From Candidatus Yanofskybacteria bacterium RIFCSPHIGHO2_01_FULL_41_26 (GTDB lineage: Bacteria > Patescibacteriota > Minisyncoccia > 2-02-FULL-40-12 > GWA2-44-9), in the NCBI GenBank assembly GCA_001794055.1, contig MGJB01000001.1, positions 7,457-71,456 of the forward strand: a stretch of 64,000 nucleotides of DNA, written 5' to 3'. Positions 3,538-64,000 of the stretch are shown piece after piece (the first letter of the stretch is position 1; each line of letters opens with the position of its first letter). The notes under the pieces are model-generated. The model was not told where the DNA came from. It ran no database searches and was given only the letters and a program-made list of their open reading frames with translations. A program made the position numbers and the translations under genes.

Positions 3538-4614
3538 GTGAACAGGAAACTTCTCTCAATAATTTTGATATTAGTCGTTTTTGGCCTTGTTGTTTTATCT
3601 TCGGCGGGAATCGTGGATGGTCAGAAGAAATTCGGTTCCTCTTATTATTATCTTACGCACCAGTTATTGTACGGAGTAATACCCGGTTTTATCGGAATGT
3701 TTGTCTTTTCTCTGATAAATTACAAGTTTTGGAAAAAGACATCATTATTTGTTTTAATCGGTTCGTTGGCGTTGATGATAATGATATTTATGCCTAATTT
3801 TGGTCATGGTCTCAAGGGTGCGACTCGGTGGATAAATCTGGGTGTTTTCTCTTTCCAGCCAGCTGAAATACTAAAACTCTCCTTGATAATATATTTGGCG
3901 GCATGGTTTGGAAACAGGGATGAAAGGACAAAGAGATGGTCTTATGGCGTGTTGCCATTTTTGATAGTTCTGTCTTTCGTGGCTTTGCTTTTATTTCTTC
4001 AACCGGATATCGGCACACTGATAGTGGTCTCGCTTATTTCTTTAGGAGTTTATTTTTTAGCTGGTCCAAGCTATAAACAGTTTGCGGGAATTTTGTTGGT
4101 CTTATTTCTGGGCTTATCGGCGATAATCGTTGTTGAACCTTACCGTTTTGATCGTTTAAAAGCTTTTTGGGATCCGTCTGTTGATCCGAGGGGAATTTCA
4201 TATCAAATAAATCAATCTTTAATATCAATCGGTTCAGGAGGATTGTTTGGCGTTGGTTATAATAACAGTTCCCAAAAGCAAGGAGGATTTTTACCGGAAG
4301 TGATAGGAGACTCGATTTTTGCTATTATTGCTGAAGAATTGGGATTGGTGGGCTCGGCGCTTACGGTTGGATTATTTGGAACCCTGTGTTTTTTTCTGGT
4401 TGGTATAGCCAAAAATGCGTCTGATAAGTTCGGAACTCTTCTTGTCATGGGGATTAATATTTGGATTATGTCACAAGCATTTGTAAATATAGCCGCCATA
4501 TCGGGACTTGTTCCTTTAACAGGTATTCCTCTGCCGTTTATCAGTTATGGTGGCACCGCTCTTGTGGTTCTGTTGTTGGGGATGGGAATTGTGTTTAATG
4601 TTGCTAAAGATTAA
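3538..4614 (+). CDS. ftsW: SEDS-family peptidoglycan glycosyltransferase (FtsW/RodA)
   Basis: 10-TM protein with the conserved C-terminal PLPFISYGG motif of FtsW/RodA. GTG start. Confidence 0.8.
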   Translation: MNRKLLSIILILVVFGLVVLSSAGIVDGQKKFGSSYYYLTHQLLYGVIPGFIGMFVFSLINYKFWKKTSLFVLIGSLALMIMIFMPNFGHGLKGATRWINLGVFSFQPAEILKLSLIIYLAAWFGNRDERTKRWSYGVLPFLIVLSFVALLLFLQPDIGTLIVVSLISLGVYFLAGPSYKQFAGILLVLFLGLSAIIVVEPYRFDRLKAFWDPSVDPRGISYQINQSLISIGSGGLFGVGYNNSSQKQGGFLPEVIGDSIFAIIAEELGLVGSALTVGLFGTLCFFLVGIAKNASDKFGTLLVMGINIWIMSQAFVNIAAISGLVPLTGIPLPFISYGGTALVVLLLGMGIVFNVAKD

Positions 4615-34293: not shown

Positions 34294-37216
34294 ATGGTTA
34301 TGGAGAGCAAAAATAAAATCTGGAAGATGATTTTTAAACCAGAACAACCAAATCTAGAGAAAGATTTGGAATTGGACGATGAAAAGTTGCAGAACATTGT
34401 TTTAGAAAAAAAAGAATTACAGAGTGAAATTGAAAAAAAACTTAGCTTATCTAATAACGCAAACGAAATCTTTTCCTCTATTAATACCTATAAGTTTATT
34501 AGCCATGAAGATGCCGTAGAATTCTTTGATCGATTATTGGATCATCCGGCAATATATAATTGTCTTGATGGCAGTAGTGCTTACTTAATTCTAGATTTTC
34601 TTAGGGAAAAAGGTAATCCTGAGGCCGTAGAAACAATTATACGATATGTTAACCACATATTATTACCTGGGTATAAAAGACAAGCGCATCTTCAGTTCGA
34701 CTTATATCATGCCGCTTTTACGCTATTAGCTATTTTAGGCAAAGAAGCATGTGAAAAAGTGCTTCAATCTCTTGCCGAACAAGACGTGACTTTTAAGGGC
34801 TGGTTTGAAAAAAATAAAATCTCTCTTTTGGGTCTAAAGTTTCCGAGCCAAATTACAAGTTCATACAAATCGGACATCCCCCATAATGATTGGCCTCCAA
34901 ATTATCTCGATAAAACATCAACACCATCAAATGAAGAACTTTCAGTTTCACGACCGTCGGAATTTCAAAAGACCAATGACACATTGGATTTTCAATCCAG
35001 ACTTTGGGAACAAGGTAAACCCTTTAATTTTTACAGAAGATTTAGGCCGGTGGTTCCCAACAGTGTTATTGTAGACGGAGCAAATTATTTAATGGCTTTG
35101 CGTGGTACTGTGGAAAATATGGGCGATAATAATAATTTGGATCCCAGTCTAAACTTATTGTCTGGTAGGATTGAAGAAAAACTTTTAACTGCAACGGTAG
35201 AAAAACCGGAACAATCCAATCAGAAAGAAATATTCGAAATTGTTTCTCTTGGGGCAGGTGAAGTCTTGTGTTTGGCCGTTTTGGAAAATAACAGAGAAGA
35301 AGCGCTACTCCGCTTAGGAATTATAAAACAGTTTATTGATCAAAGTAAAAGCAAAATTTCAGAAATTTTTAAAATGTTTCTTTTGGATGAATTAGCTTTG
35401 ATTGAATATTATATAAAAAATGATTCTAATTTTTCTTTTCCAGAACTTCCTCAAAACGCTGAATCTTTCCTGATGTATCATGCTTGGCACACAAAAACCA
35501 GAGAAATCCCCGATTTTAGAGTTCTTTTAGCAGAAAAAGTTAGGTGGTTAATGGCAAATGATTTAACCAGCAATCTGTCATTAATAGCGTTTGGTCCTAA
35601 CAATCTTCCTATAGGGGGACCGTCTTTTGCCAGAATAATTGAAATCGTCGGAAGATACAAAAAGGGACTGGAATTATATAAAGTTGTTGACGAAAAAGAT
35701 ATGCCTATTTACTGGGAAGCCATCGATAAATTGGAAGATACCGATCCGTCAAGAATAGTTGTTTTTGGCCGAGATGGAAGATTTTTCTTTACGGCATTGA
35801 AAGCTTCGGGATTTGGCATCGGAGACAAAGAGGTTAAGTATGTGGTTATAACCAGAAACATGAAGGATCTGGAGTCAAGAGACACAATTACGGACTACTT
35901 GAAACAGAATGGAATATCTCTTGATTTTACTTTTGTCGATACAGGTTTTCGGGGTTCTATACCGGAATTGGCGATAGATTTTCTATCCCAAGACCAGGGT
36001 ATAAGCCTGTCTTCACAAGAAATAGACCGGAAAATAACTTTGTTATCAAGCTCGGAACGAACCCGAACAGAACTGTCTAGAAAAAGACGATCGAGAGACG
36101 AACAAATGAGGACTGTGGGGGTGATAGAGGATCATCGGCCCCAAAACATGGAAAGTCCGGCTCAACTGGAAATGGACGAAAGGGGAAAACTAAGACCAAA
36201 AGGTACATTTAATTCTTCTGCTGACCAGCTTGGCTATTGGATTGTAGAGCATGTATCTTTAAGGAATTTTGCGCCAAAACTTAATCCGGATAAAAGAATC
36301 GAATATAACAAAAAAGATCCTCTAAGTGGCCTGAGATTTGTTCAGGACTACAGAGGAGAATCTATCGGAACCCACCCCATGGAGTTGTGGGAAGATAAAA
36401 ATGAAGATAAAGAAAGGTTTCTCATCAAAGGCGGTCCCGAGCATACGTTAAGAGCGGATTTTGTTGGCCAGAGATTTCTACGGCAGGCCGATTTGGTGGT
36501 TCCAGACACAGAACTTGTGACAATAAACGGTCAGCTTAAATTAAAGATGGAATTTTTGGCAGACTACAAATTAATGGGGCTTCATCTTCCCGTCGAGTTT
36601 CAAAACAGCGAAAAGATTCAGTCCGCTTTGTTGGTCGATGCTTTATTGGGCCAGTATGACCGTACTCCTTGGAATTTAATGTTTAATTCGCGTTGGGGGG
36701 AGCATCGTGTTGCCTTCATTGATAACGGTGCCAGTTTGTTTTCCAGGGCCAGGGGGGGGGCACAAAGGTTTTCCGAGATACTTTGATGTGTCTCAACTGG
36801 CGGAAATACTGGCTAATCCTCAGTTTATTGGTGAACCAGTCAATGAGGCATACGACAATTTAATTGAAGTCAAAGATGGGGTTATAAAAGTTAAAAACAG
36901 AGAAAGATTTTCAGAACTTTTCAAGAAATTCTGTTTTTCTTTTGATTATGATTTTATTGATTCCGTTATTGAACAAGCGGGATATCCTGACGGTAGAAGG
37001 TCCATCCTTTTTCTGGAAGGAATTGTTGAAGATTTAACAGGAGAATTAAAAAGAATGCACCCCGGGTCATCGGATTATAAAAAAACCAACGAAGCCATAG
37101 AAACTTATAAAAAGGCTATCGAAGCTGGAGGAGAATCGTCATATCTCAAACAAGCTCTTAAGCAGAGGAGAGATGATATTATAAACATGTTCAATGGTTT
37201 GGGTTTTCAATTCTGA
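34294..37216 (+). CDS. Large (~970 aa if contiguous) protein with C-terminal PI3K/PI4K-superfamily kinase domain most like type II PI4K. Reading frame broken by a G9 homopolymer (two ORFs 34294-36786 and 36707-37216)
   Basis: Catalytic-loop-like LLVDALLGQYDRTPWNLMF and activation-loop-like RVAFIDNGASLF closely parallel PI4KII [20 protein letters not shown] / IKVAAIDNGLAF. Removing one G of ggggggggg (36752-36760) fuses the frames: ...SRARGGHKGFPRYFD... Confidence 0.55.
36752..36760 (+). repeat. G9 homopolymeric tract inside the kinase-like gene (frameshift point)
   Basis: aggggggggg cac. ORFs in frames +1 and +2 overlap exactly here. Confidence 0.9.
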
Positions 37217-57190: not shown

Positions 57191-58942
57191 TTAAGGATTA
57201 ATTTTCCAGACGAAGATGGAATTGCCGATAACTTTAATTGGTTGATAGTTGGTAAGCCAGCCGTAATTTTTGTCAGTGGCGAGGGACTGTTGATAGAACG
57301 TTGCCGATACAGCGATATATCCGCCGGTCGGATTATCTGACATGAATTGGTCTTTAGTTTTGTATTTTTCGCTTGTCATCCAATAAAATTTATTACCCAA
57401 ATAATATGATTGATCAGCCCAGCCGAAATAATCAAGACTAATTTTTTTAATATCATTTCTATCAACCCAATCAGCCAGACGCTTTAAGTCTTGGCCCCAG
57501 TCAAGGTTTGAATCAACAACATATCTGTAACCGCCGGTTGGTCCGCCGGCTATTTGATTAAAATAAGTCAAGTAATAAGGAAAGATTATGATTGTTTCGG
57601 CCAATAACCAGGCACACAGAGTGCTTACGAAGACCAGATATACCCTCTTTGCCTTAACGCGTTCATAAAGAACGGATAGTTGACCCGCAACAAGAATGGC
57701 TGTACCACCATAGACTGGGATTAGATGTCTGATCCCAATATTTAAATTGGCGTTGATACTGATAATCCAATAAAAAAGCGCCCAGGAGAAGATGGCTGTT
57801 TCTGCGAAATGGATTCGCAGCCAGTTTTTCAGGCGCCGTTCTTTGGTGCGGGCATTTATAAAAAATGCGATTGTCGCGATGATAAAGAGTATTAAAAATG
57901 GAATTGGTTCTTTCAGGGCATAAATAACTGGAAAATATGATTTTACTGCTGTTTGATAAACGTTGCCCAAAAAGTAGGTTTGATTGCCGCCGACATTTCT
58001 TTGAAAAATCATCAACACCCCAAGACTGTATTGAGCAAATGGACGAAGTAAGGGTTTATCCGATGCCCATATAACAGGATCGGCAAAAAGCCGATTACCG
58101 TAAGAACCTAAAATAACAGCTGCATCCGCTTTTTGTTTTTCTCCGCTGTAATTTAAAAGATGCAATTGAAATATCGGACCGACAATGAATGCAAAACCAA
58201 CAATAATTATCAGAACTGCCTTCCAGGCCATGCTGATCATTCCCGATAATTTGTGCTGATTGGCGTATGCCCATATGACAGCCAGAAAGACGAGCAGGGG
58301 AATCAATAAGAATGCTGAAAACTTGGTTAGTTGACCGAGACCGAAAACAATCGCAGCCAACCAAAAGTTTTTGTTCCGCCAGCCGGCAGATTGATTTTCA
58401 AAATAGCGTTCAAAAAAATACAGTGTCGCTATAATGCCGGCGAGGAGAGCGATGTCAGTGGTAACTAGCCGGGAATGGGCAATAACGGTAGGAGTAAAAG
58501 AAAATAAGAATATCGCCAGAAGCGCAGCTTTGTCACCGAATAATTTTTTGGTCCAGACAAAAATTATCCATGCCGAAATAATAAAGAATAACAACATCGG
58601 CAGTTTGGCCGCGCGAACCAAAGTGATGGCATCGTTGCCTGTTTGGAAGATCAGGGCTCGGCCGAAATTCCATTGACCGTTCACGTCAGTTGGCCAGTTA
58701 GTGGGATATTTTTGAGAAAAGGCGCTTTGGTTTAGATTGAAAGGCAGCAAAGCCAATCCGGCCAGATCTTTAGCCAGTGGCGGGTGCTCCGGATTGAACT
58801 GATAGCTATGCTGGACGACATATGAATAACCGGCGCCGATGTGGGGAATTTCATCAACAACAGGCGAGTCATTCCAACCACTTGTAATTGCCAAGATGGT
58901 AGCCGAAGCAATTATTAGGAATGCTGTTAATTTGATTTTCAT
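57191..58942 (-). CDS. GT-C superfamily glycosyltransferase (PMT/ArnT, GT39/GT83-like)
   Basis: N-terminal DE motif loop (VVDEIPH) and HPPLAK motif typical of the PMT/ArnT family. ~12 TM helices. Confidence 0.65.
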   Translation of the reverse strand: MKIKLTAFLIIASATILAITSGWNDSPVVDEIPHIGAGYSYVVQHSYQFNPEHPPLAKDLAGLALLPFNLNQSAFSQKYPTNWPTDVNGQWNFGRALIFQTGNDAITLVRAAKLPMLLFFIISAWIIFVWTKKLFGDKAALLAIFLFSFTPTVIAHSRLVTTDIALLAGIIATLYFFERYFENQSAGWRNKNFWLAAIVFGLGQLTKFSAFLLIPLLVFLAVIWAYANQHKLSGMISMAWKAVLIIIVGFAFIVGPIFQLHLLNYSGEKQKADAAVILGSYGNRLFADPVIWASDKPLLRPFAQYSLGVLMIFQRNVGGNQTYFLGNVYQTAVKSYFPVIYALKEPIPFLILFIIATIAFFINARTKERRLKNWLRIHFAETAIFSWALFYWIISINANLNIGIRHLIPVYGGTAILVAGQLSVLYERVKAKRVYLVFVSTLCAWLLAETIIIFPYYLTYFNQIAGGPTGGYRYVVDSNLDWGQDLKRLADWVDRNDIKKISLDYFGWADQSYYLGNKFYWMTSEKYKTKDQFMSDNPTGGYIAVSATFYQQSLATDKNYGWLTNYQPIKVIGNSIFVWKINP

Positions 58943-58946
58943 TCCG

Positions 58947-59960
58947 TTATTTGAAATATCTCCAGTATTCCATAAATCCGATAGAAAACAAGAAAACGAT
59001 CATGACCAATGCAGTTATTACAGGGGCTTCGTGAACTGAATGAGCATCACGCATTGAATACCACGAACTTAATTTATCAAAGAACCACCAGATTCCCCGG
59101 GCGGTGAAAATCATTACCACAGGCAGAACACCAATAGTTATCAGTGTATTGTGGGCTGTGGCAGATAAAAATCCGGGTATAAGCACGATTAAGAACCATG
59201 CAAACAAGAGAGTGTGGATGGTTGAAAAGTGGCCATGCTTGCGCCTTAACCAGTGTATAAGCTCATTAATAAAACCGACAATAAAGAATATACCTATTGG
59301 CCAAGGTAAAAGTGGGGAATCCGAGAAGTTAAACATTCCTAAGGTTTTTACCAAGCTTGTGACAGATATATTTACCCCTACACTGGACATAGGGGCGGTT
59401 TGTTGCCAAAAAGATATCATGGCAGGCAAAGCAACCGCAAAAGCCGTCAAAGCAAGCAAGACGAAACCTTGAAGCAACTTGTTTTTGGCGTATTCGTATT
59501 TAGCGTGGTTAAAATCTTTTTTCAGATACCACCAATAATTTAAGAATAATAACATGACAACAATCGGCGTCGTGTAGAAAGAGGTGTTAGTATAAAATCC
59601 TAATCCGCCAAAAATACCGGCCATAGCAAAATCAGGCCGATGATTGTGTTTTAAACCCTTCCAAAGAAAATAGAAAGTATAAACAAGTACAAATGGAATT
59701 ATTATTGCGCTATCTTCCATTCGTGAAAAACTAACATGCCAGAAAGAAATTGCTGCAAGGTAGCTTGCAATAGCTGCTAAGCGCCACTCAAATAGTTCTT
59801 TAACTAACAGATAAAGCCCGATAATGGTGAGGACTCCAATGAGTGGCGGAAAGATGGTGCCCATCGTTGCGATGGGCACCATCATATAAAGACGGAAAAA
59901 AGAAGCAACTCCGACGATAATTAAAAAGATAACAAGCTCTTGTTTTTTTGTTTTTTGCAT
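58947..59960 (-). CDS. Polytopic membrane protein, possibly a second GT-C-like glycosyltransferase
   Basis: 337 aa with ~10 TM helices. Directly upstream (same strand) of the GT-C gene. Confidence 0.45.
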   Translation of the reverse strand: MQKTKKQELVIFLIIVGVASFFRLYMMVPIATMGTIFPPLIGVLTIIGLYLLVKELFEWRLAAIASYLAAISFWHVSFSRMEDSAIIIPFVLVYTFYFLWKGLKHNHRPDFAMAGIFGGLGFYTNTSFYTTPIVVMLLFLNYWWYLKKDFNHAKYEYAKNKLLQGFVLLALTAFAVALPAMISFWQQTAPMSSVGVNISVTSLVKTLGMFNFSDSPLLPWPIGIFFIVGFINELIHWLRRKHGHFSTIHTLLFAWFLIVLIPGFLSATAHNTLITIGVLPVVMIFTARGIWWFFDKLSSWYSMRDAHSVHEAPVITALVMIVFLFSIGFMEYWRYFK

Positions 59961-60022
59961 ACTTTTATATTCTAACAGAAAAGAAGTAAAGTTTTATCAA
60001 CAAACCGGAGATTGATTTTGTC

Positions 60023-60031
60023 GGGGGGGGG
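60023..60031 (+). repeat. G9 homopolymeric tract in the promoter spacer / 5' region of the 60048 gene
   Basis: ttgattttgtcGGGGGGGGGtgttatattcaaaatcATG. Lies between a -35-like TTGATT and a -10-like TTATAT. Confidence 0.85.
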
Positions 60032-60047
60032 TGTTATATTCAAAATC

Positions 60048-61700
60048 ATGGAAAGTATGCTTCAAGTCGAAAAACCAATAATCGCCGAAAAAAGCAGAGA
60101 CGAACTATATTTTGATACTCTCAAAGCCAAGAGGGATGTTTTGTCTTCTCATTATGCATTGGGCCAACTGCGAAAGGGCAGGAAAGTAGAGGAAATGTCG
60201 GATACCGAGGTTGAAGATTATAAATCAGTTAAAGAAGAATATGACAAGCGCAGAGAATTATTTCTCGTTTCATTTGGTAATTTAAACGAGAATGACAGTC
60301 AAAAAATTTCGGAGCTAACAAGCCTTACTAAAGTTGAGATTGCATTGTCTTCTTTGGATAAATCCACAGAAGCCAAAACTGAAGCAGCGGTTCCCGATGA
60401 AGTTTTAATAGGAGAAGGCCATGTTTTTAATAGTTTGATTGCTGTAGAGAGTCCTGATAGAGGCACAACAATGGCTGAAGTGAATAGGATGTTGAAATAT
60501 TCTCAAGATACTGCCCGTCCATTAGAAACCGCATACTGGGAATCTAAAAAAGCTGAACTTTTTGAAAGGCAGGAAGCCGAAACAAACCCAGACCGGCCGG
60601 CGCCAAAAGGATTTATGCAAAGAGCCAGAGATGCTTTTGAAAAGACAAAAGATGCTATTTTGGGGACCAATCGTATAAGCGGAGGTTCAGAAAGCGTTGA
60701 ATCAAGAATGTCTCCTCTTGGATTGAGATCTCAACCATTAACACAACCAGAAGCGGTGCCTCAACAATCCGAAAAAGAACCCAAGAAACCAAGCAAGTGG
60801 GGTTGGCTTAAAGAACGCGGAAAAGGTGTCTGGAATTTCGGCATTTGGGAATTTCATCAGGCGGAAAGATTAAGAATCAAAACAAAAGAAGTTGAAAATG
60901 ACGTTAGGGCTCTTGCAAGCAATATTCAACATGAGATAAATCTTGAACCGGAAGAAGCAGAAACAACCGCTTGGGAAATAGTTAACGAGCTTAAGGCAAA
61001 AAACTTGGACATTTCAGCTCCGGAATTTTTTGAAGCATCAAGGGATATTTTTGAGAAGAAAGCAAGGGAAAATGCCGAGCAGGAAAATTATATAATCCAA
61101 TCGGCATGGGAGGATCTTCAGGAAAAAGCAAAAAAATATCGGGGTGAGGCGGGCCAAGACGTGTTCACTGAAGAAGTCAGAGTTAAATTTGAATCAGACT
61201 TAAGAAAAGAATTACATAAAGTCCGCAACGGAGCCATAAAAGAAGACGTAGTTAAATTTGCGGGTGTTATGAGAAAAAATCTTGACGAGAACTGGCAATG
61301 GAGATATGTCTGGGGTGCGGCAGAGGCAGCGCTCGGTTTTATCGGAGTTAAATACCTGGTTATGAAAATAGAACAGGCGGCGCTGGCAAAATTAGCAGCT
61401 GCCGAGAAGGCCGCGGGTGCCGTAAAAGGCGGCGCTGGCGCTGTTGAACAGGCGCTTACTCAAAAGATGCACGAGAACGTTTGGACGACCTTAAAGGAAA
61501 TGGCCCAAAACGGTCCGCAGCATCTCAACTTGGATAATTCTACTTTGCAAGAGCTTAGTCAAAAGGTTTTGGATTTCAATAGTATGTATGAGCAGGAATG
61601 GGTCAATCAAGCCGTTGAGGGTCTTAGAAGCTCAAGAGTTTTACCTGAAGGATTACCGATCAACATACCCCCTGAAGTATTGAAAGTTCTTGGATATTAA
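60048..61700 (+). CDS. Hypothetical 550-aa charged/coiled-coil protein, possibly surface or secreted
   Basis: Long ORF with no recognisable domain. Single hydrophobic stretch near residue 430. Confidence 0.5.
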   Translation: MESMLQVEKPIIAEKSRDELYFDTLKAKRDVLSSHYALGQLRKGRKVEEMSDTEVEDYKSVKEEYDKRRELFLVSFGNLNENDSQKISELTSLTKVEIALSSLDKSTEAKTEAAVPDEVLIGEGHVFNSLIAVESPDRGTTMAEVNRMLKYSQDTARPLETAYWESKKAELFERQEAETNPDRPAPKGFMQRARDAFEKTKDAILGTNRISGGSESVESRMSPLGLRSQPLTQPEAVPQQSEKEPKKPSKWGWLKERGKGVWNFGIWEFHQAERLRIKTKEVENDVRALASNIQHEINLEPEEAETTAWEIVNELKAKNLDISAPEFFEASRDIFEKKARENAEQENYIIQSAWEDLQEKAKKYRGEAGQDVFTEEVRVKFESDLRKELHKVRNGAIKEDVVKFAGVMRKNLDENWQWRYVWGAAEAALGFIGVKYLVMKIEQAALAKLAAAEKAAGAVKGGAGAVEQALTQKMHENVWTTLKEMAQNGPQHLNLDNSTLQELSQKVLDFNSMYEQEWVNQAVEGLRSSRVLPEGLPINIPPEVLKVLGY

Positions 61701-61725
61701 TTTATTAACTTTGTATTAATTTAGA

Positions 61726-61816
61726 ACGTAGCTGGCTTGGCCAAATTCGAGGAAAAATCGAGTATTCGACTGAAACATAGTAAACTATGTTGAAGGAGAA
61801 GCGGAGATTTTAACGA
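61726..61816 (+). ncRNA. Conserved structured 5' leader (copy 2) upstream of the small acidic protein gene
   Basis: See 20366-20475. Confidence 0.5.
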
Positions 61817-61887
61817 AGAAGTTGGTCAAGAGCATACTGCCTTAATCTGCCGTAGACAGATGGCAGAGCGACCGGCAAGTTATAAAC

Positions 61888-62181
61888 ATGAATGAAGCAC
61901 AACAACAATTAGCGGACACAATAGGGGAATTGCTTGCCCAGTCGCCTCTGGATGACGAAATAAAAAATCGTCTTTTGGAAAAAATGGAAGAAATTCCCGA
62001 GAATTTGTTATTTCGACTGCAGGATGCTCTGGAAAGAGAGAAAGAAGAACTTGAAACGGTTGCTTTTGATATAGATATGTTTCTCAAAGATCAGGAGAAA
62101 AACTGGCAGGGAGTAGTTGAAGACCAGAAAAGGATTGCCGGAGAAGTGACCGATAAATGGGTTGAAAAACTCAAAACCTAA
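61888..62181 (+). CDS. Hypothetical small acidic protein
   Basis: 97 aa. Followed by hairpin aaacctcaattgaggtttaacctcaa and terminator aaaacagccaaaatggctgTTTTTT. Confidence 0.45.
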   Translation: MNEAQQQLADTIGELLAQSPLDDEIKNRLLEKMEEIPENLLFRLQDALEREKEELETVAFDIDMFLKDQEKNWQGVVEDQKRIAGEVTDKWVEKLKT

Positions 62182-62280
62182 CTCAATTGAGGTTAAACCT
62201 CAAGAACTCAAACCCGAGGTTTAACCTCATCAAATTAAATACCCTCAAAAAACAGCCAAAATGGCTGTTTTTTGAGGGTA

Positions 62281-62310
62281 TTGACAAAGTGGTGGCAAGT
62301 ATGCTATACT
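62281..62310 (+). promoter_or_regulatory. Near-consensus sigma70 promoter TTGACA-18-TATACT for cassette P3
   Basis: ttgacaaagtggtggcaagtatgctatact. The first 12 and last 11 nt are shared with the P2 promoter. Confidence 0.6.
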
Positions 62311-62390
62311 TGACTTACACAACGGAATGAATGTGAGATAGACCCTTGTCAACCAAGCTCCTGAAAAGGGGCACAACGAAAGGTAGAAAA

Positions 62391-62846
62391 ATGAATCCAC
62401 GCATTGTCGGCGTCGGCGCTCTCATCGCGGTTCTGTGCCTAGCCATCCTGGCGATTCTCGTGGGCTTCGGCGGCGACCGCGCGTCGGCCCTCCCGCAGGG
62501 TCCGACCGACCTCGTTGTTTATCAGGCCTATCAGGTCGCCGACTTTCGGTCGTGCAAGCTGGCGGACGGTTCGCTGGCGACGGAGTGGCATTTCGGCGGA
62601 GCGGATCGCTCGCGCCGAAATCAGCTGACGCCGGCGCTGGACGGCCGCGGCCGTCCGATCTTCCGGGTCGTGACGAACAATAGGAATCTCCCGGCTGGCC
62701 ACATGCGTTTGCGCATGGTGGCCGAAGCCGACCCGACACTCGAGGGCTTCAAATACGGCGACTATTCCTGGAATGGGATTGTCGTCGAGTACAACGGCCG
62801 CGTCGAGGACCAGCGGATCGTCGGTCCCTGCGGACCGGACCGCTGA
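62391..62846 (+). CDS. G+C-rich hypothetical secreted/membrane-anchored protein (cassette P3)
   Basis: ATG after gaaaggtagaaaa. N-terminal TM/signal (IVGVGALIAVLCLAILAILVG). Terminator hairpins at 62893-62947. Confidence 0.5.
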   Translation: MNPRIVGVGALIAVLCLAILAILVGFGGDRASALPQGPTDLVVYQAYQVADFRSCKLADGSLATEWHFGGADRSRRNQLTPALDGRGRPIFRVVTNNRNLPAGHMRLRMVAEADPTLEGFKYGDYSWNGIVVEYNGRVEDQRIVGPCGPDR

Positions 62847-63690: not shown

Positions 63691-64000
63691 TTTTATTCTC
63701 ACAATTTATCTTGGGGTTTTGGCGATAATATTTATTGCCGGGTTAGTTTTGCTGGGTTCGGCCAGAACTAAAGGTAGTCTTGCCAGGGCTTTGAACATGT
63801 CTTTATTTTTGATCTCAGTGCCTCGTGAAAGCCCTTCAGCGAGTTTCGGCCAAAATCCTCGATCCGAAAAAGAATTAATCTCGGTAATGGAACAGCTTTA
63901 TTCTTCTTTTATCAACATCCACGCTAAGGGTTGGAACAAATTTATATATGGCGAACCGTATATTTCTCTGGAAATGGGAGTGCATCACATCGGCGAGGAG
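63691..64000 (+). CDS. Possible membrane protein, 3'-truncated by window end
   Basis: Open frame to the last base. Hydrophobic N-terminus. Start codon (TTG 63691 or ATG 63796) uncertain. Confidence 0.25.

What the first reader, a model, noticed from the sequence alone, without database searches (positions are those of the whole stretch)
60001..60060. Second G9 homopolymer located in the promoter spacer of a divergently oriented hypothetical gene
ttgattttgtcGGGGGGGGGtgttatattcaaaatcATG places the nine-G run between a -35-like TTGATT and a -10-like TTATAT, 17 nt upstream of the start of the 550-aa hypothetical protein (60048-61700). It is also upstream of the divergent membrane-protein/GT-C operon (59960-57191). 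Changes in tract length would alter spacer length and promoter strength, the textbook promoter-type phase variation. Two G9 tracts in 64 kb of AT-rich DNA suggest a set of contingency loci, which is not a feature usually discussed for CPR bacteria.
Basis: partly seen in the sequence, partly recalled or inferred. Interest (0 to 1): 0.6.

Follow-up and report, generated by a model that had tools for sequence, protein, structure and literature searches.

The report
Poly-G tract inside a leaderless promoter
A run of nine Gs sits in the spacer of a real promoter in an uncultivated groundwater bacterium (Candidatus Yanofskybacteria) and has been kept, at different lengths, in related species, so it looks like the mutation-driven expression dial known from pathogens, but switching itself has not been shown.

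Summary
G9 lies at 60023-60031, between TTGATT (60012-60017) and TGtTATATT (60032-60040). The spacer is 17 bp and the -10 ends 7 nt before the ATG at 60048. Eleven orthologous loci keep this layout (TTGnnn, 16-18 nt, TAnnnT, exactly 7 nt, ATG), so it is a genuine leaderless promoter.

Seven of the eleven orthologues carry a G run at the same place: G7, G8, G8, G9, G9, G9 and G10. The flanks are constant, so the spacer reads 16, 17 or 18. One orthologue has an interrupted remnant. Three have no tract, and all three have a 17-nt spacer. The tract therefore looks ancestral, selectively retained and free to change length.

In this organism every assembly I could read or infer (about 18 contigs) has G9. 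In one sister population, six otherwise near-identical assemblies differ at the tract (G10TG, G12, G13). That could be real variation or homopolymer sequencing error.

The closest analogue is the poly-G spacer tract of Neisseria meningitidis porA. I found no paper describing phase variation in CPR bacteria. Switching and an effect on expression are untested, and the 550-aa product has no recognisable function. I file it as a new member of a known kind, of moderate interest.

The parts
60023..60031 (+). G9 homopolymer, the central 9 bp of the promoter spacer
   Evidence: The orthologous position carries G7 to G10 in seven related species.
60012..60017 (+). -35 hexamer TTGATT
   Evidence: A TTG trinucleotide lies 16-18 nt upstream of the -10 in all 11 orthologues.
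60018..60034 (+). 17-nt spacer: ttgtc + G9 + tgt
   Evidence: The flanks ttgtt/ttgtc and tgt are constant in most tract-bearing orthologues (L026 has tcttga on the left, L025 has tga on the right), so length differences lie in the tract itself.
60032..60040 (+). extended -10, TGtTATATT
   Evidence: T75, G76, T78, A79 and T83 are invariant in alignment A3. In this window the same motif peaks 6-8 nt before the ATG of long ORFs.
60048..61700 (+). 550-aa gene of unknown function. Its ATG starts 7 nt after the -10, so the mRNA is inferred to be leaderless
   Evidence: There are no family hits. The AlphaFold2 model is all-helical with pLDDT 58.
61888..62181 (+). 97-aa gene, conserved immediately downstream in orthologues and probably co-transcribed
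62239..62281 (.). palindromic hairpin with a 20-bp stem, the likely terminator of the two-gene unit. A strong TTGACA-18-TATACT promoter follows it
59993..60002 (.). TTTATCAACA box between the two divergent core promoters, invariant in all 11 orthologues
   Evidence: Only two exact copies occur in the window.
59969..59977 (-). extended -10 (TGtTAGAAT) of the divergent PMT_2 / PMT operon, 8 nt before its ATG at 59960
57191..59960 (-). divergent operon: a 337-aa PMT_2-like membrane protein and a 583-aa PMT-type GT-C glycosyltransferase
   Evidence: Synteny is conserved in orthologous loci.
36752..36760 (+). the other G9 (context only): it lies inside a gene of about 973 aa and puts it out of frame by +1 G

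Best explanation
The G9 run is the middle of the 17-bp spacer of a sigma-70-type promoter with an extended -10. This promoter fires a leaderless transcript for a two-gene unit: the 550-aa gene and the 97-aa gene, ending at a hairpin near 62239-62281.

Inference: a G/C homopolymer of this length is prone to slipped-strand mispairing at replication. Gain or loss of one G would change the distance between the -35 and -10 (16, 17 or 18 bp). That would change how well RNA polymerase can contact both elements, so expression would be turned up or down heritably and reversibly. G9 gives the 17-bp spacing that all tract-free orthologues also have, so the allele seen here is probably the high-expression state.

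Shown here:
- the position of the tract;
- the conserved promoter geometry;
- retention of the tract across a clade;
- tract length varying with spacer length between species.

Inferred, not shown:
- slippage at an appreciable rate in this organism;
- an effect of spacer length on transcription;
- a selective benefit of switching.
For: (1) The promoter is real.
- All 11 orthologous loci keep TTGnnn, 16-18 nt, TAnnnT, exactly 7 nt, ATG.
- In this window TGnTAnnnT lies 6-8 nt before the ATG of a long ORF 11 times. Other distances score about 1 each. Nine of 59 genes show this layout.

(2) The tract is retained and varies in length.
- Window G9, spacer 17. L022/L049 G9, 17. L059 G9, 17. L025 G10, 18. 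L030 G8, 16. L031 G8, 16. L026 G7, 16.
- L058, the closest relative, has an interrupted remnant, GGTGATGG, spacer 16.
- L011, L023 and L038 have no tract, and all three have a spacer of 17.
- The sequence between the TTTATCAACA box and the -35 is not conserved in the same alignment. Nine neutral bases would not have survived proteins diverging to about 50% identity.

(3) A neighbour-joining tree places each tract-free orthologue next to a tract-bearing one. This suggests an ancestral tract with repeated loss.

(4) In the P0012 species, six assemblies have a 100% identical 1797-nt gene. Across all six, the only variable sites in the sequence they share are in the tract: G10TG three times, G12 once, G13 twice. 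Elsewhere there are two single-contig SNPs and a divergent end on L077.

(5) The other G9 in this window breaks a gene by +1 G. An orthologue with G8 is also +1 out of frame, and the two tract-free orthologues examined at DNA level are intact.

(6) The tract is not coding. In L023, L025 and L030 there is no in-frame start upstream of the conserved ATG.

(7) There is a direct precedent. The poly-G tract between the -35 and -10 of N. meningitidis porA gives graded expression at 11G, 10G and 9G (PMC3639595).
Against: - About 18 contigs of this organism from independent assemblies are all G9 or consistent with it. Nine assemblies of the P0003 species are all G9. Seven assemblies of the Hainich species are all G7. 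No consensus-level switching is visible at G7 or G9.
- The only within-population variation concerns a longer tract. It splits by assembler: IDBA and JGI assemblies give G10TG, megahit assemblies give G12 or G13. It may therefore be technical.
- Extended -10 promoters can work without a -35, so a change in spacer length might have little effect.
- The product has no signal peptide and only a borderline hydrophobic segment, and no function could be assigned. The usual rationale for phase variation, a variable surface antigen, is not established.
- A G8 in a similar promoter-like context precedes a housekeeping UvrD helicase gene in another Patescibacteria genome. Such tracts need not mark contingency genes.
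Confidence: 0.5

Rival explanations
1. The G run is a fixed cis-element of this promoter rather than a switch. It could be a spacer with particular rigidity or melting behaviour, or the binding site of a regulator. Length differences between species would then be slow, tolerated drift.
For: The tract is conserved as G while its surroundings diverge. It is invariant within three populations. An invariant TTTATCAACA box nearby shows the region is under regulatory constraint.
Against: Three orthologues replaced the run with unrelated AT-rich sequence yet kept the 17-nt spacing and the hexamers, so G content is dispensable for promoter function. A protein-binding site would not be expected to tolerate lengths of 7, 8, 9 and 10. 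No G-run-binding regulator is known to me (own knowledge).
Confidence: 0.25
2. The tract is a self-perpetuating homopolymer with no function. Once seeded in a tolerant spacer, slippage keeps regenerating it, and the promoter works regardless because of its extended -10.
For: Extended -10 promoters are less dependent on the -35 (established knowledge). The tract has been lost or interrupted at least four times without loss of the gene. The window-only statistics are modest.
Against: The TTG of the -35 is kept in all 11 orthologues, and all tract-free orthologues have exactly 17 nt. Spacing therefore appears to be under selection. Seven of eleven lineages retain at least seven Gs at proteins diverged to about 50% identity, which is hard to explain without selection.
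Confidence: 0.17
3. The tract is coding. The gene would start at TTG 60012 or 60018 (562 or 560 aa, as several gene callers chose), so tract changes would switch translation on and off.
For: The ORF is open from 60012 through G9. ENA and JGI gene calls give 560 or 562 aa.
Against: Homologues start at the ATG equivalent to 60048. Orthologues with G8 or G10 have no in-frame upstream start, and others have a stop 21-45 nt upstream. The supposed extension overlaps the conserved -35 and -10.
Confidence: 0.03
4. The tract is a sequencing or assembly artefact.
For: One scaffold (L009) has a gap of Ns inside the tract. Homopolymers are error-prone.
Against: The same G9 appears in eight independently assembled contigs made with different assemblers, and G tracts sit at the same place in other species.
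Confidence: 0.01

Closest known systems
Neisseria meningitidis porA promoter poly-G tract (and the opc / fetA poly-C tracts)
   Same: A G/C homopolymer lies between the -35 and -10, and one-base changes alter the spacer length. In porA, 11G, 10G and 9G give high, intermediate and low expression (PMC3639595). Here G9 gives 17 bp, and orthologues show G8 with 16 bp and G10 with 18 bp.
   Different: The phylum is different (Patescibacteria/CPR, a groundwater organism rather than a host-adapted pathogen). The promoter is leaderless with an extended -10. The product is not a known surface antigen. No strain-to-strain or clonal switching has been shown for this organism. The opc and fetA comparison rests on my own knowledge and was not checked in a paper here.
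Haemophilus influenzae hifA/hifB fimbrial promoter (TA repeats in a combined divergent promoter)
   Same: A repeat tract sits in the -35/-10 spacer within a short intergenic region between divergent genes (van Ham et al. 1993, seen only as a citation in PMC5084427).
   Different: In hif the repeats sit in overlapping promoters and control both genes. Here the tract lies only in the + strand promoter spacer, and the divergent promoter has its own -10 46 bp beyond the near end of the tract. The repeat is a homopolymer, not a dinucleotide.
Mycoplasma hyorhinis vlp poly-A and Bordetella pertussis fim poly-C promoter tracts
   Same: These are homopolymers within or next to core promoter elements that set transcription level through their length (own knowledge, not checked here).
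   Different: The base differs, the position relative to activator sites differs, and the products are surface lipoproteins or fimbriae.
Intragenic poly-G/C contingency loci of Campylobacter jejuni and Helicobacter pylori
   Same: G/C tracts of 7 or more act as mutational on/off switches (abstracts listed). The other G9 in this window (36752) behaves like an OFF allele of this type.
   Different: Those tracts act on translation frame, whereas the tract studied here lies in a promoter.

Membership tests
SSR-mediated promoter phase variation (porA type) | Simple-sequence repeat long enough to slip (G/C homopolymer of about 7 or more) | tested here: met
   G9 at 60023-60031
SSR-mediated promoter phase variation (porA type) | Repeat lies between the -35 and -10 of the promoter that drives the gene | tested here: met
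   TTGATT-17-TATATT with TG. The geometry is conserved in 11 orthologues. The transcription start itself is not mapped.
SSR-mediated promoter phase variation (porA type) | Repeat number differs among strains or within a population | tested here: inconclusive
   Invariant G9 in about 18 contigs of this organism. Lengths of G7 to G10 occur between species. G10TG, G12 and G13 occur among near-identical assemblies of a sister species, where homopolymer error is not excluded.
SSR-mediated promoter phase variation (porA type) | Change in repeat number changes transcript or protein level | not testable with these tools
   Needs reporter assays, in vitro transcription or metatranscriptomes.
SSR-mediated promoter phase variation (porA type) | High-frequency, reversible switching | not testable with these tools
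   Needs read-level or single-cell data. Only consensus assemblies were available.
Leaderless mRNA promoter | -10 hexamer (TANNNT) ending 6-8 nt before the start codon, with no Shine-Dalgarno sequence | tested here: met
   TATATT ends at 60040 and the ATG is at 60048. The distance is 7 nt in all 11 orthologues. In this window the motif-to-ATG distance peaks at 6-8 nt.

The most novel reading that the evidence does not exclude
Yanofskybacteria, and possibly other CPR/Patescibacteria, may maintain genuine contingency loci. One is a poly-G tract kept since the common ancestor of a clade in the spacer of a leaderless promoter. Another is a poly-G tract inside a kinase-like gene that is found out of frame in both species that carry it. 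If so, these ultra-small, uncultivated groundwater bacteria would use mutation-driven phase variation, a strategy so far described mainly for host-adapted pathogens and commensals. The variation could act on a conserved module placed next to protein-glycosylation (GT-C) genes.
Probability: 0.4. Interest if true: 0.7.

Novelty: new member of a known kind. Interest (0 to 1): 0.55.

Why it matters
Regulation and population heterogeneity in CPR bacteria are almost unknown, because few of these organisms are cultured. Two full-text searches found no paper describing phase variation in this group. The tract is conserved but varies in length, and it sits in a well-defined promoter. That gives a concrete hypothesis which existing metagenomic reads could test. 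The work also yields a promoter model for this lineage: an extended -10 placed 6-8 nt before the ATG, meaning leaderless mRNAs. This model could improve start-codon calls. Several pipelines extended this gene by 10-12 codons through its own promoter.

Tried and rejected
- A gapped-pattern scan of metagenome contigs for tract-length variants of this exact promoter returned nothing, although JGI contigs with the sequence exist. The collection apparently lacks them.
- Looking up the 550-aa and 547-aa start variants to catch assemblies with other tract lengths found only G9 contigs.
- Function of the 550-aa protein could not be assigned. Pfam, NCBIfam, PADLOC and PHROGs gave no hits. The AlphaFold2 model from a 25-sequence alignment has pLDDT 58 and pTM 0.25. 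Foldseek against the PDB gave nothing below E = 0.4, only generic coiled coils. I ran no further fold searches because the model is too poor.
- Rfam found no family over 59000-62500, apart from weak chance hits on the terminator hairpin.
- Single-strand folding of the intergenic region is no better than shuffles, z = -0.15. An RNA or DNA structural element is rejected.
- The small inverted repeat GATTTTG...CAAAATC around the tract is not conserved in orthologues and was dropped.
- The TTTATCAACA box is not a repeated regulon motif in this window: only two exact copies.
- A Markov simulation for chance expectation timed out. An analytic extrapolation replaced it.
- The idea that the tract is coding was rejected.

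Full report
**What is there.** The window is chromosomal DNA of a Candidatus Yanofskybacteria MAG from the Rifle aquifer (GCA_001794675.1, contig MGKG01000028). Housekeeping genes surround the site: UvrB, Lon, PBP, Mur ligase, MurB and tRNA synthetases. A run of nine Gs occupies 60023-60031. The only other G or C run of 7 or more is a second G9 at 36752-36760.

From the window's own run-length distribution I expect about 0.03-0.3 G runs and 0.01-0.06 C runs of 9 or more. I also expect about 1-4 G runs of 7 or more. The number of long runs is therefore ordinary. What is odd is that both are 9, with nothing at 7 or 8. On the window alone this is modestly significant.

**The promoter.** The scan gives TTGATT (60012-60017), a 17-nt spacer and TATATT (60035-60040), preceded by TG. 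That makes an extended -10, TGtTATATT. The -10 ends 7 nt before the ATG at 60048, with no Shine-Dalgarno sequence between them.

An alignment of the 25-cluster protein family shows that most homologues start at the Met equivalent to 60048. Orthologues with other tract lengths have no in-frame upstream start, or have a stop 21-45 nt upstream. The 560- and 562-aa gene calls that run through the tract are therefore over-extensions, and the tract is non-coding.

In this window the motif TGnTAnnnT lies 6-8 nt before the ATG of a long ORF 11 times. Any other distance scores about once. Nine of 59 genes show the layout, including the divergent PMT_2 gene. Leaderless transcripts from extended -10 promoters are thus a normal way of starting operons in this genome.

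The transcription unit is probably the 550-aa gene plus a conserved 97-aa gene. It is closed by a palindromic hairpin with a 20-bp stem at 62239-62281, and a new strong promoter follows.

**Comparative evidence.** I recovered the orthologous intergenic region from genome and metagenome collections. In eleven species-level orthologues (protein identity to the window about 50-80%) the layout is the same throughout. It runs: divergent PMT_2 start, its TGnTAnnAT -10, an invariant TTTATCAACA box, TTGnnn, spacer, TAnnnT (preceded by TGn in ten of the eleven), exactly 7 nt, ATG.

| Locus | Tract | Spacer (nt) |
|---|---|---|
| window | G9 | 17 |
| L022/L049 | G9 | 17 |
| L059 | G9 | 17 |
| L025 | G10 | 18 |
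| L030 | G8 | 16 |
| L031 | G8 | 16 |
| L026 | G7 | 16 |
| L058 (closest relative) | GGTGATGG, interrupted | 16 |
| L011 | none | 17 |
| L023 | none | 17 |
| L038 | none (T8 in its place) | 17 |

The flanks (ttgtt on the left, tgt on the right) stay constant in most tract-bearing orthologues, so the length differences are in the G run itself. L026 has a different left flank and L025 a slightly different right flank. All three tract-free orthologues have a spacer of exactly 17.

In a neighbour-joining tree each tract-free orthologue sits next to a tract-bearing one. The simplest reading is an ancestral tract with several losses. The non-functional bases of the same intergenic region are scrambled. 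Survival of seven or more consecutive Gs in seven lineages therefore argues for selection.

In about 197 kb of related loci there are 12 G/C runs of 7 or more, 11 of them distinct because L016 and L043 hold the same sequence. Six of them are at this promoter.

**Variation within populations.**
- This organism: eight shown contigs from different samples and assemblers have G9, and one scaffold has an N gap inside the tract. Gene-call lengths on about 18 contigs are all compatible with G9.
- P0003 species: nine assemblies are all G9.
- Hainich species: seven assemblies are all G7.
- P0012 species: six assemblies have a 100% identical 1797-nt gene, and the only variable sites in the sequence all six share are in the tract. 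Elsewhere there are two single-contig SNPs and a divergent end on L077.

The P0012 alleles are G10-T-G-A-TATTTT (three assemblies), G12-A-TATTTT (one) and G13-A-TATTTT (two). The T-to-G change also removes the TG of the extended -10, and G13 lengthens the spacer to 19.

This is what a hypermutable tract would look like. However, the alleles split by assembler: IDBA and JGI assemblies against megahit assemblies. Runs of 10-13 Gs are also where Illumina errors concentrate. The same megahit assemblies did reproduce G9 correctly at the two other species. I treat this result as suggestive, not decisive.

**The other G9.** At 36752-36760 the tract separates an 830-aa ORF from a 169-aa ORF. Removing one G gives a single 973-aa ORF that reads SRARGGHKGFP, exactly as in the orthologues that extend past the site, which are 911-1075 aa. 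Up to 19 contigs carry the 830-aa (G9) product, and no fused version at 90% identity or more exists in the database.

An orthologue with G8 at the same site (L068) is also out of frame by +1 G and is split into 883 + 166 aa. The two orthologues examined at DNA level that encode RGG as AGAGGTGGG are intact. Long G tracts in this lineage are therefore associated with frame changes. That two out of two carry one extra G leaves room for programmed slippage as an alternative to a phase-OFF state.

**Mechanism and its weak points.** The best-supported model is a porA-type promoter rheostat. Slipped-strand mispairing changes the tract by one G, the spacer moves between 16, 17 and 18 bp, and transcription of the 550-aa/97-aa unit changes. 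G9, giving 17 bp, would be the high state. In porA, 11G, 10G and 9G give graded expression (PMC3639595).

Weak points:
- No switching is visible at G9.
- An extended -10 may buffer changes in spacer length. Against this, the invariant TTG and the strict 17 nt in tract-free orthologues suggest that the -35 matters.
- The product is not evidently a surface protein. It has no family hits, an all-helical low-confidence model, one borderline hydrophobic segment (Kyte-Doolittle score of about 1.36 by hand calculation, below the 1.6 threshold used) and no structural match.
- A G8 in a similar promoter-like context precedes an intein-containing UvrD helicase gene in another Patescibacteria genome.

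The tract is unlikely to act on the divergent GT-C operon through core geometry. That promoter's -10 (59969-59977) is 46 bp beyond the near end of the tract. Competition between the two closely spaced polymerase footprints is possible but speculative.

**Novelty.** The mechanism is textbook. The organism and the promoter type (leaderless, extended -10) are new for it. Two full-text searches found no paper on phase variation in Patescibacteria or the CPR. I file it as a new member of a known kind. My confidence is about 0.5 that it truly acts as a mutational expression switch, and about 0.85 that the promoter assignment and the non-chance retention of the tract are correct.

Noticed in passing
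window 34294-37216 (G9 at 36752-36760): The first G9 splits a kinase-like gene of about 973 aa into 830 + 169 aa. G8 would restore the conserved SRARGGHKGFP frame. Up to 19 contigs carry the G9 product. Orthologue L068 (G8 at 3840-3847) is also +1 G out of frame, while two tract-free orthologues (L069, L074) are intact. Either these are phase-OFF alleles, or there is programmed transcriptional slippage or +1 frameshifting.
   Followed up: yes
window 59993-60002: The 10-bp box TTTATCAACA between the two divergent core promoters is invariant in all 11 orthologues, better conserved than either -35. On the minus strand it reads TGTTGATAAA, with TTGATA about 19-20 nt from the PMT_2 -10, which is too far for a normal -35. 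It may be a regulator binding site. Only one other exact copy occurs in the window, at 63908.
   Followed up: partly
window-wide, for example 8023, 26294, 39967, 41517, 45548, 59960, 60048, 63277: Nine of 59 genes have TGnTAnnnT 6-8 nt before the start codon, and the motif-to-ATG distance peaks sharply at 6-8 nt. Leaderless mRNAs appear common in this Yanofskybacteria genome. Gene callers mis-extend some starts through the promoter.
   Followed up: partly
L076-L081 (P0012 species), promoter tract about 15-27 nt upstream of the gene start: Six near-identical assemblies differ at the tract: G10TG, G12 and G13. Across all six, the tract sites are the only variable positions in the sequence they share. 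The T-to-G allele also destroys the TG of the extended -10. This is either real polymorphism or homopolymer error.
   Followed up: yes
L016 3012-3019 (same sequence in L043 2103-2110): A G8 run directly abuts a TATCAT hexamer about 30 nt upstream of a distant (31% identity) homologue of the 550-aa gene, just after a terminator. A G tract may be a recurrent feature upstream of this gene family.
   Followed up: partly
L020 4709-4716: A G8 lies in a promoter-like context (ATGATT-17-TATACT). A 12-bp-stem hairpin follows, and then a 1022-aa UvrD/PcrA helicase gene that contains an intein. It shows that promoter-like G tracts in Patescibacteria also occur at housekeeping genes.
   Followed up: partly
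L009 around 1240-1260 (equivalent to window 60023-60052): One scaffold of this organism has a 10-N gap that begins inside the G tract after 8 Gs. This is an assembly break exactly at the homopolymer.
   Followed up: no
L026 versus L027/L082-L086, left of the TTTATCAACA box: Two Hainich strains share an identical + strand promoter and gene but have unrelated sequence on the PMT_2 side. The switch occurs next to the conserved box, which suggests a recombination breakpoint.
   Followed up: no
window 62239-62281: A perfect palindromic hairpin with a 20-bp stem has T and A runs on both sides, making it a likely bidirectional terminator. The strongest consensus promoter of the region follows immediately (TTGACA-18-TATACT with TG, 62281-62310).
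   Followed up: no
whole window: There is a strong excess of G over C on the + strand (14619 against 11644), and nearly all genes lie on the + strand. This is consistent with a leading-strand segment.
   Followed up: no
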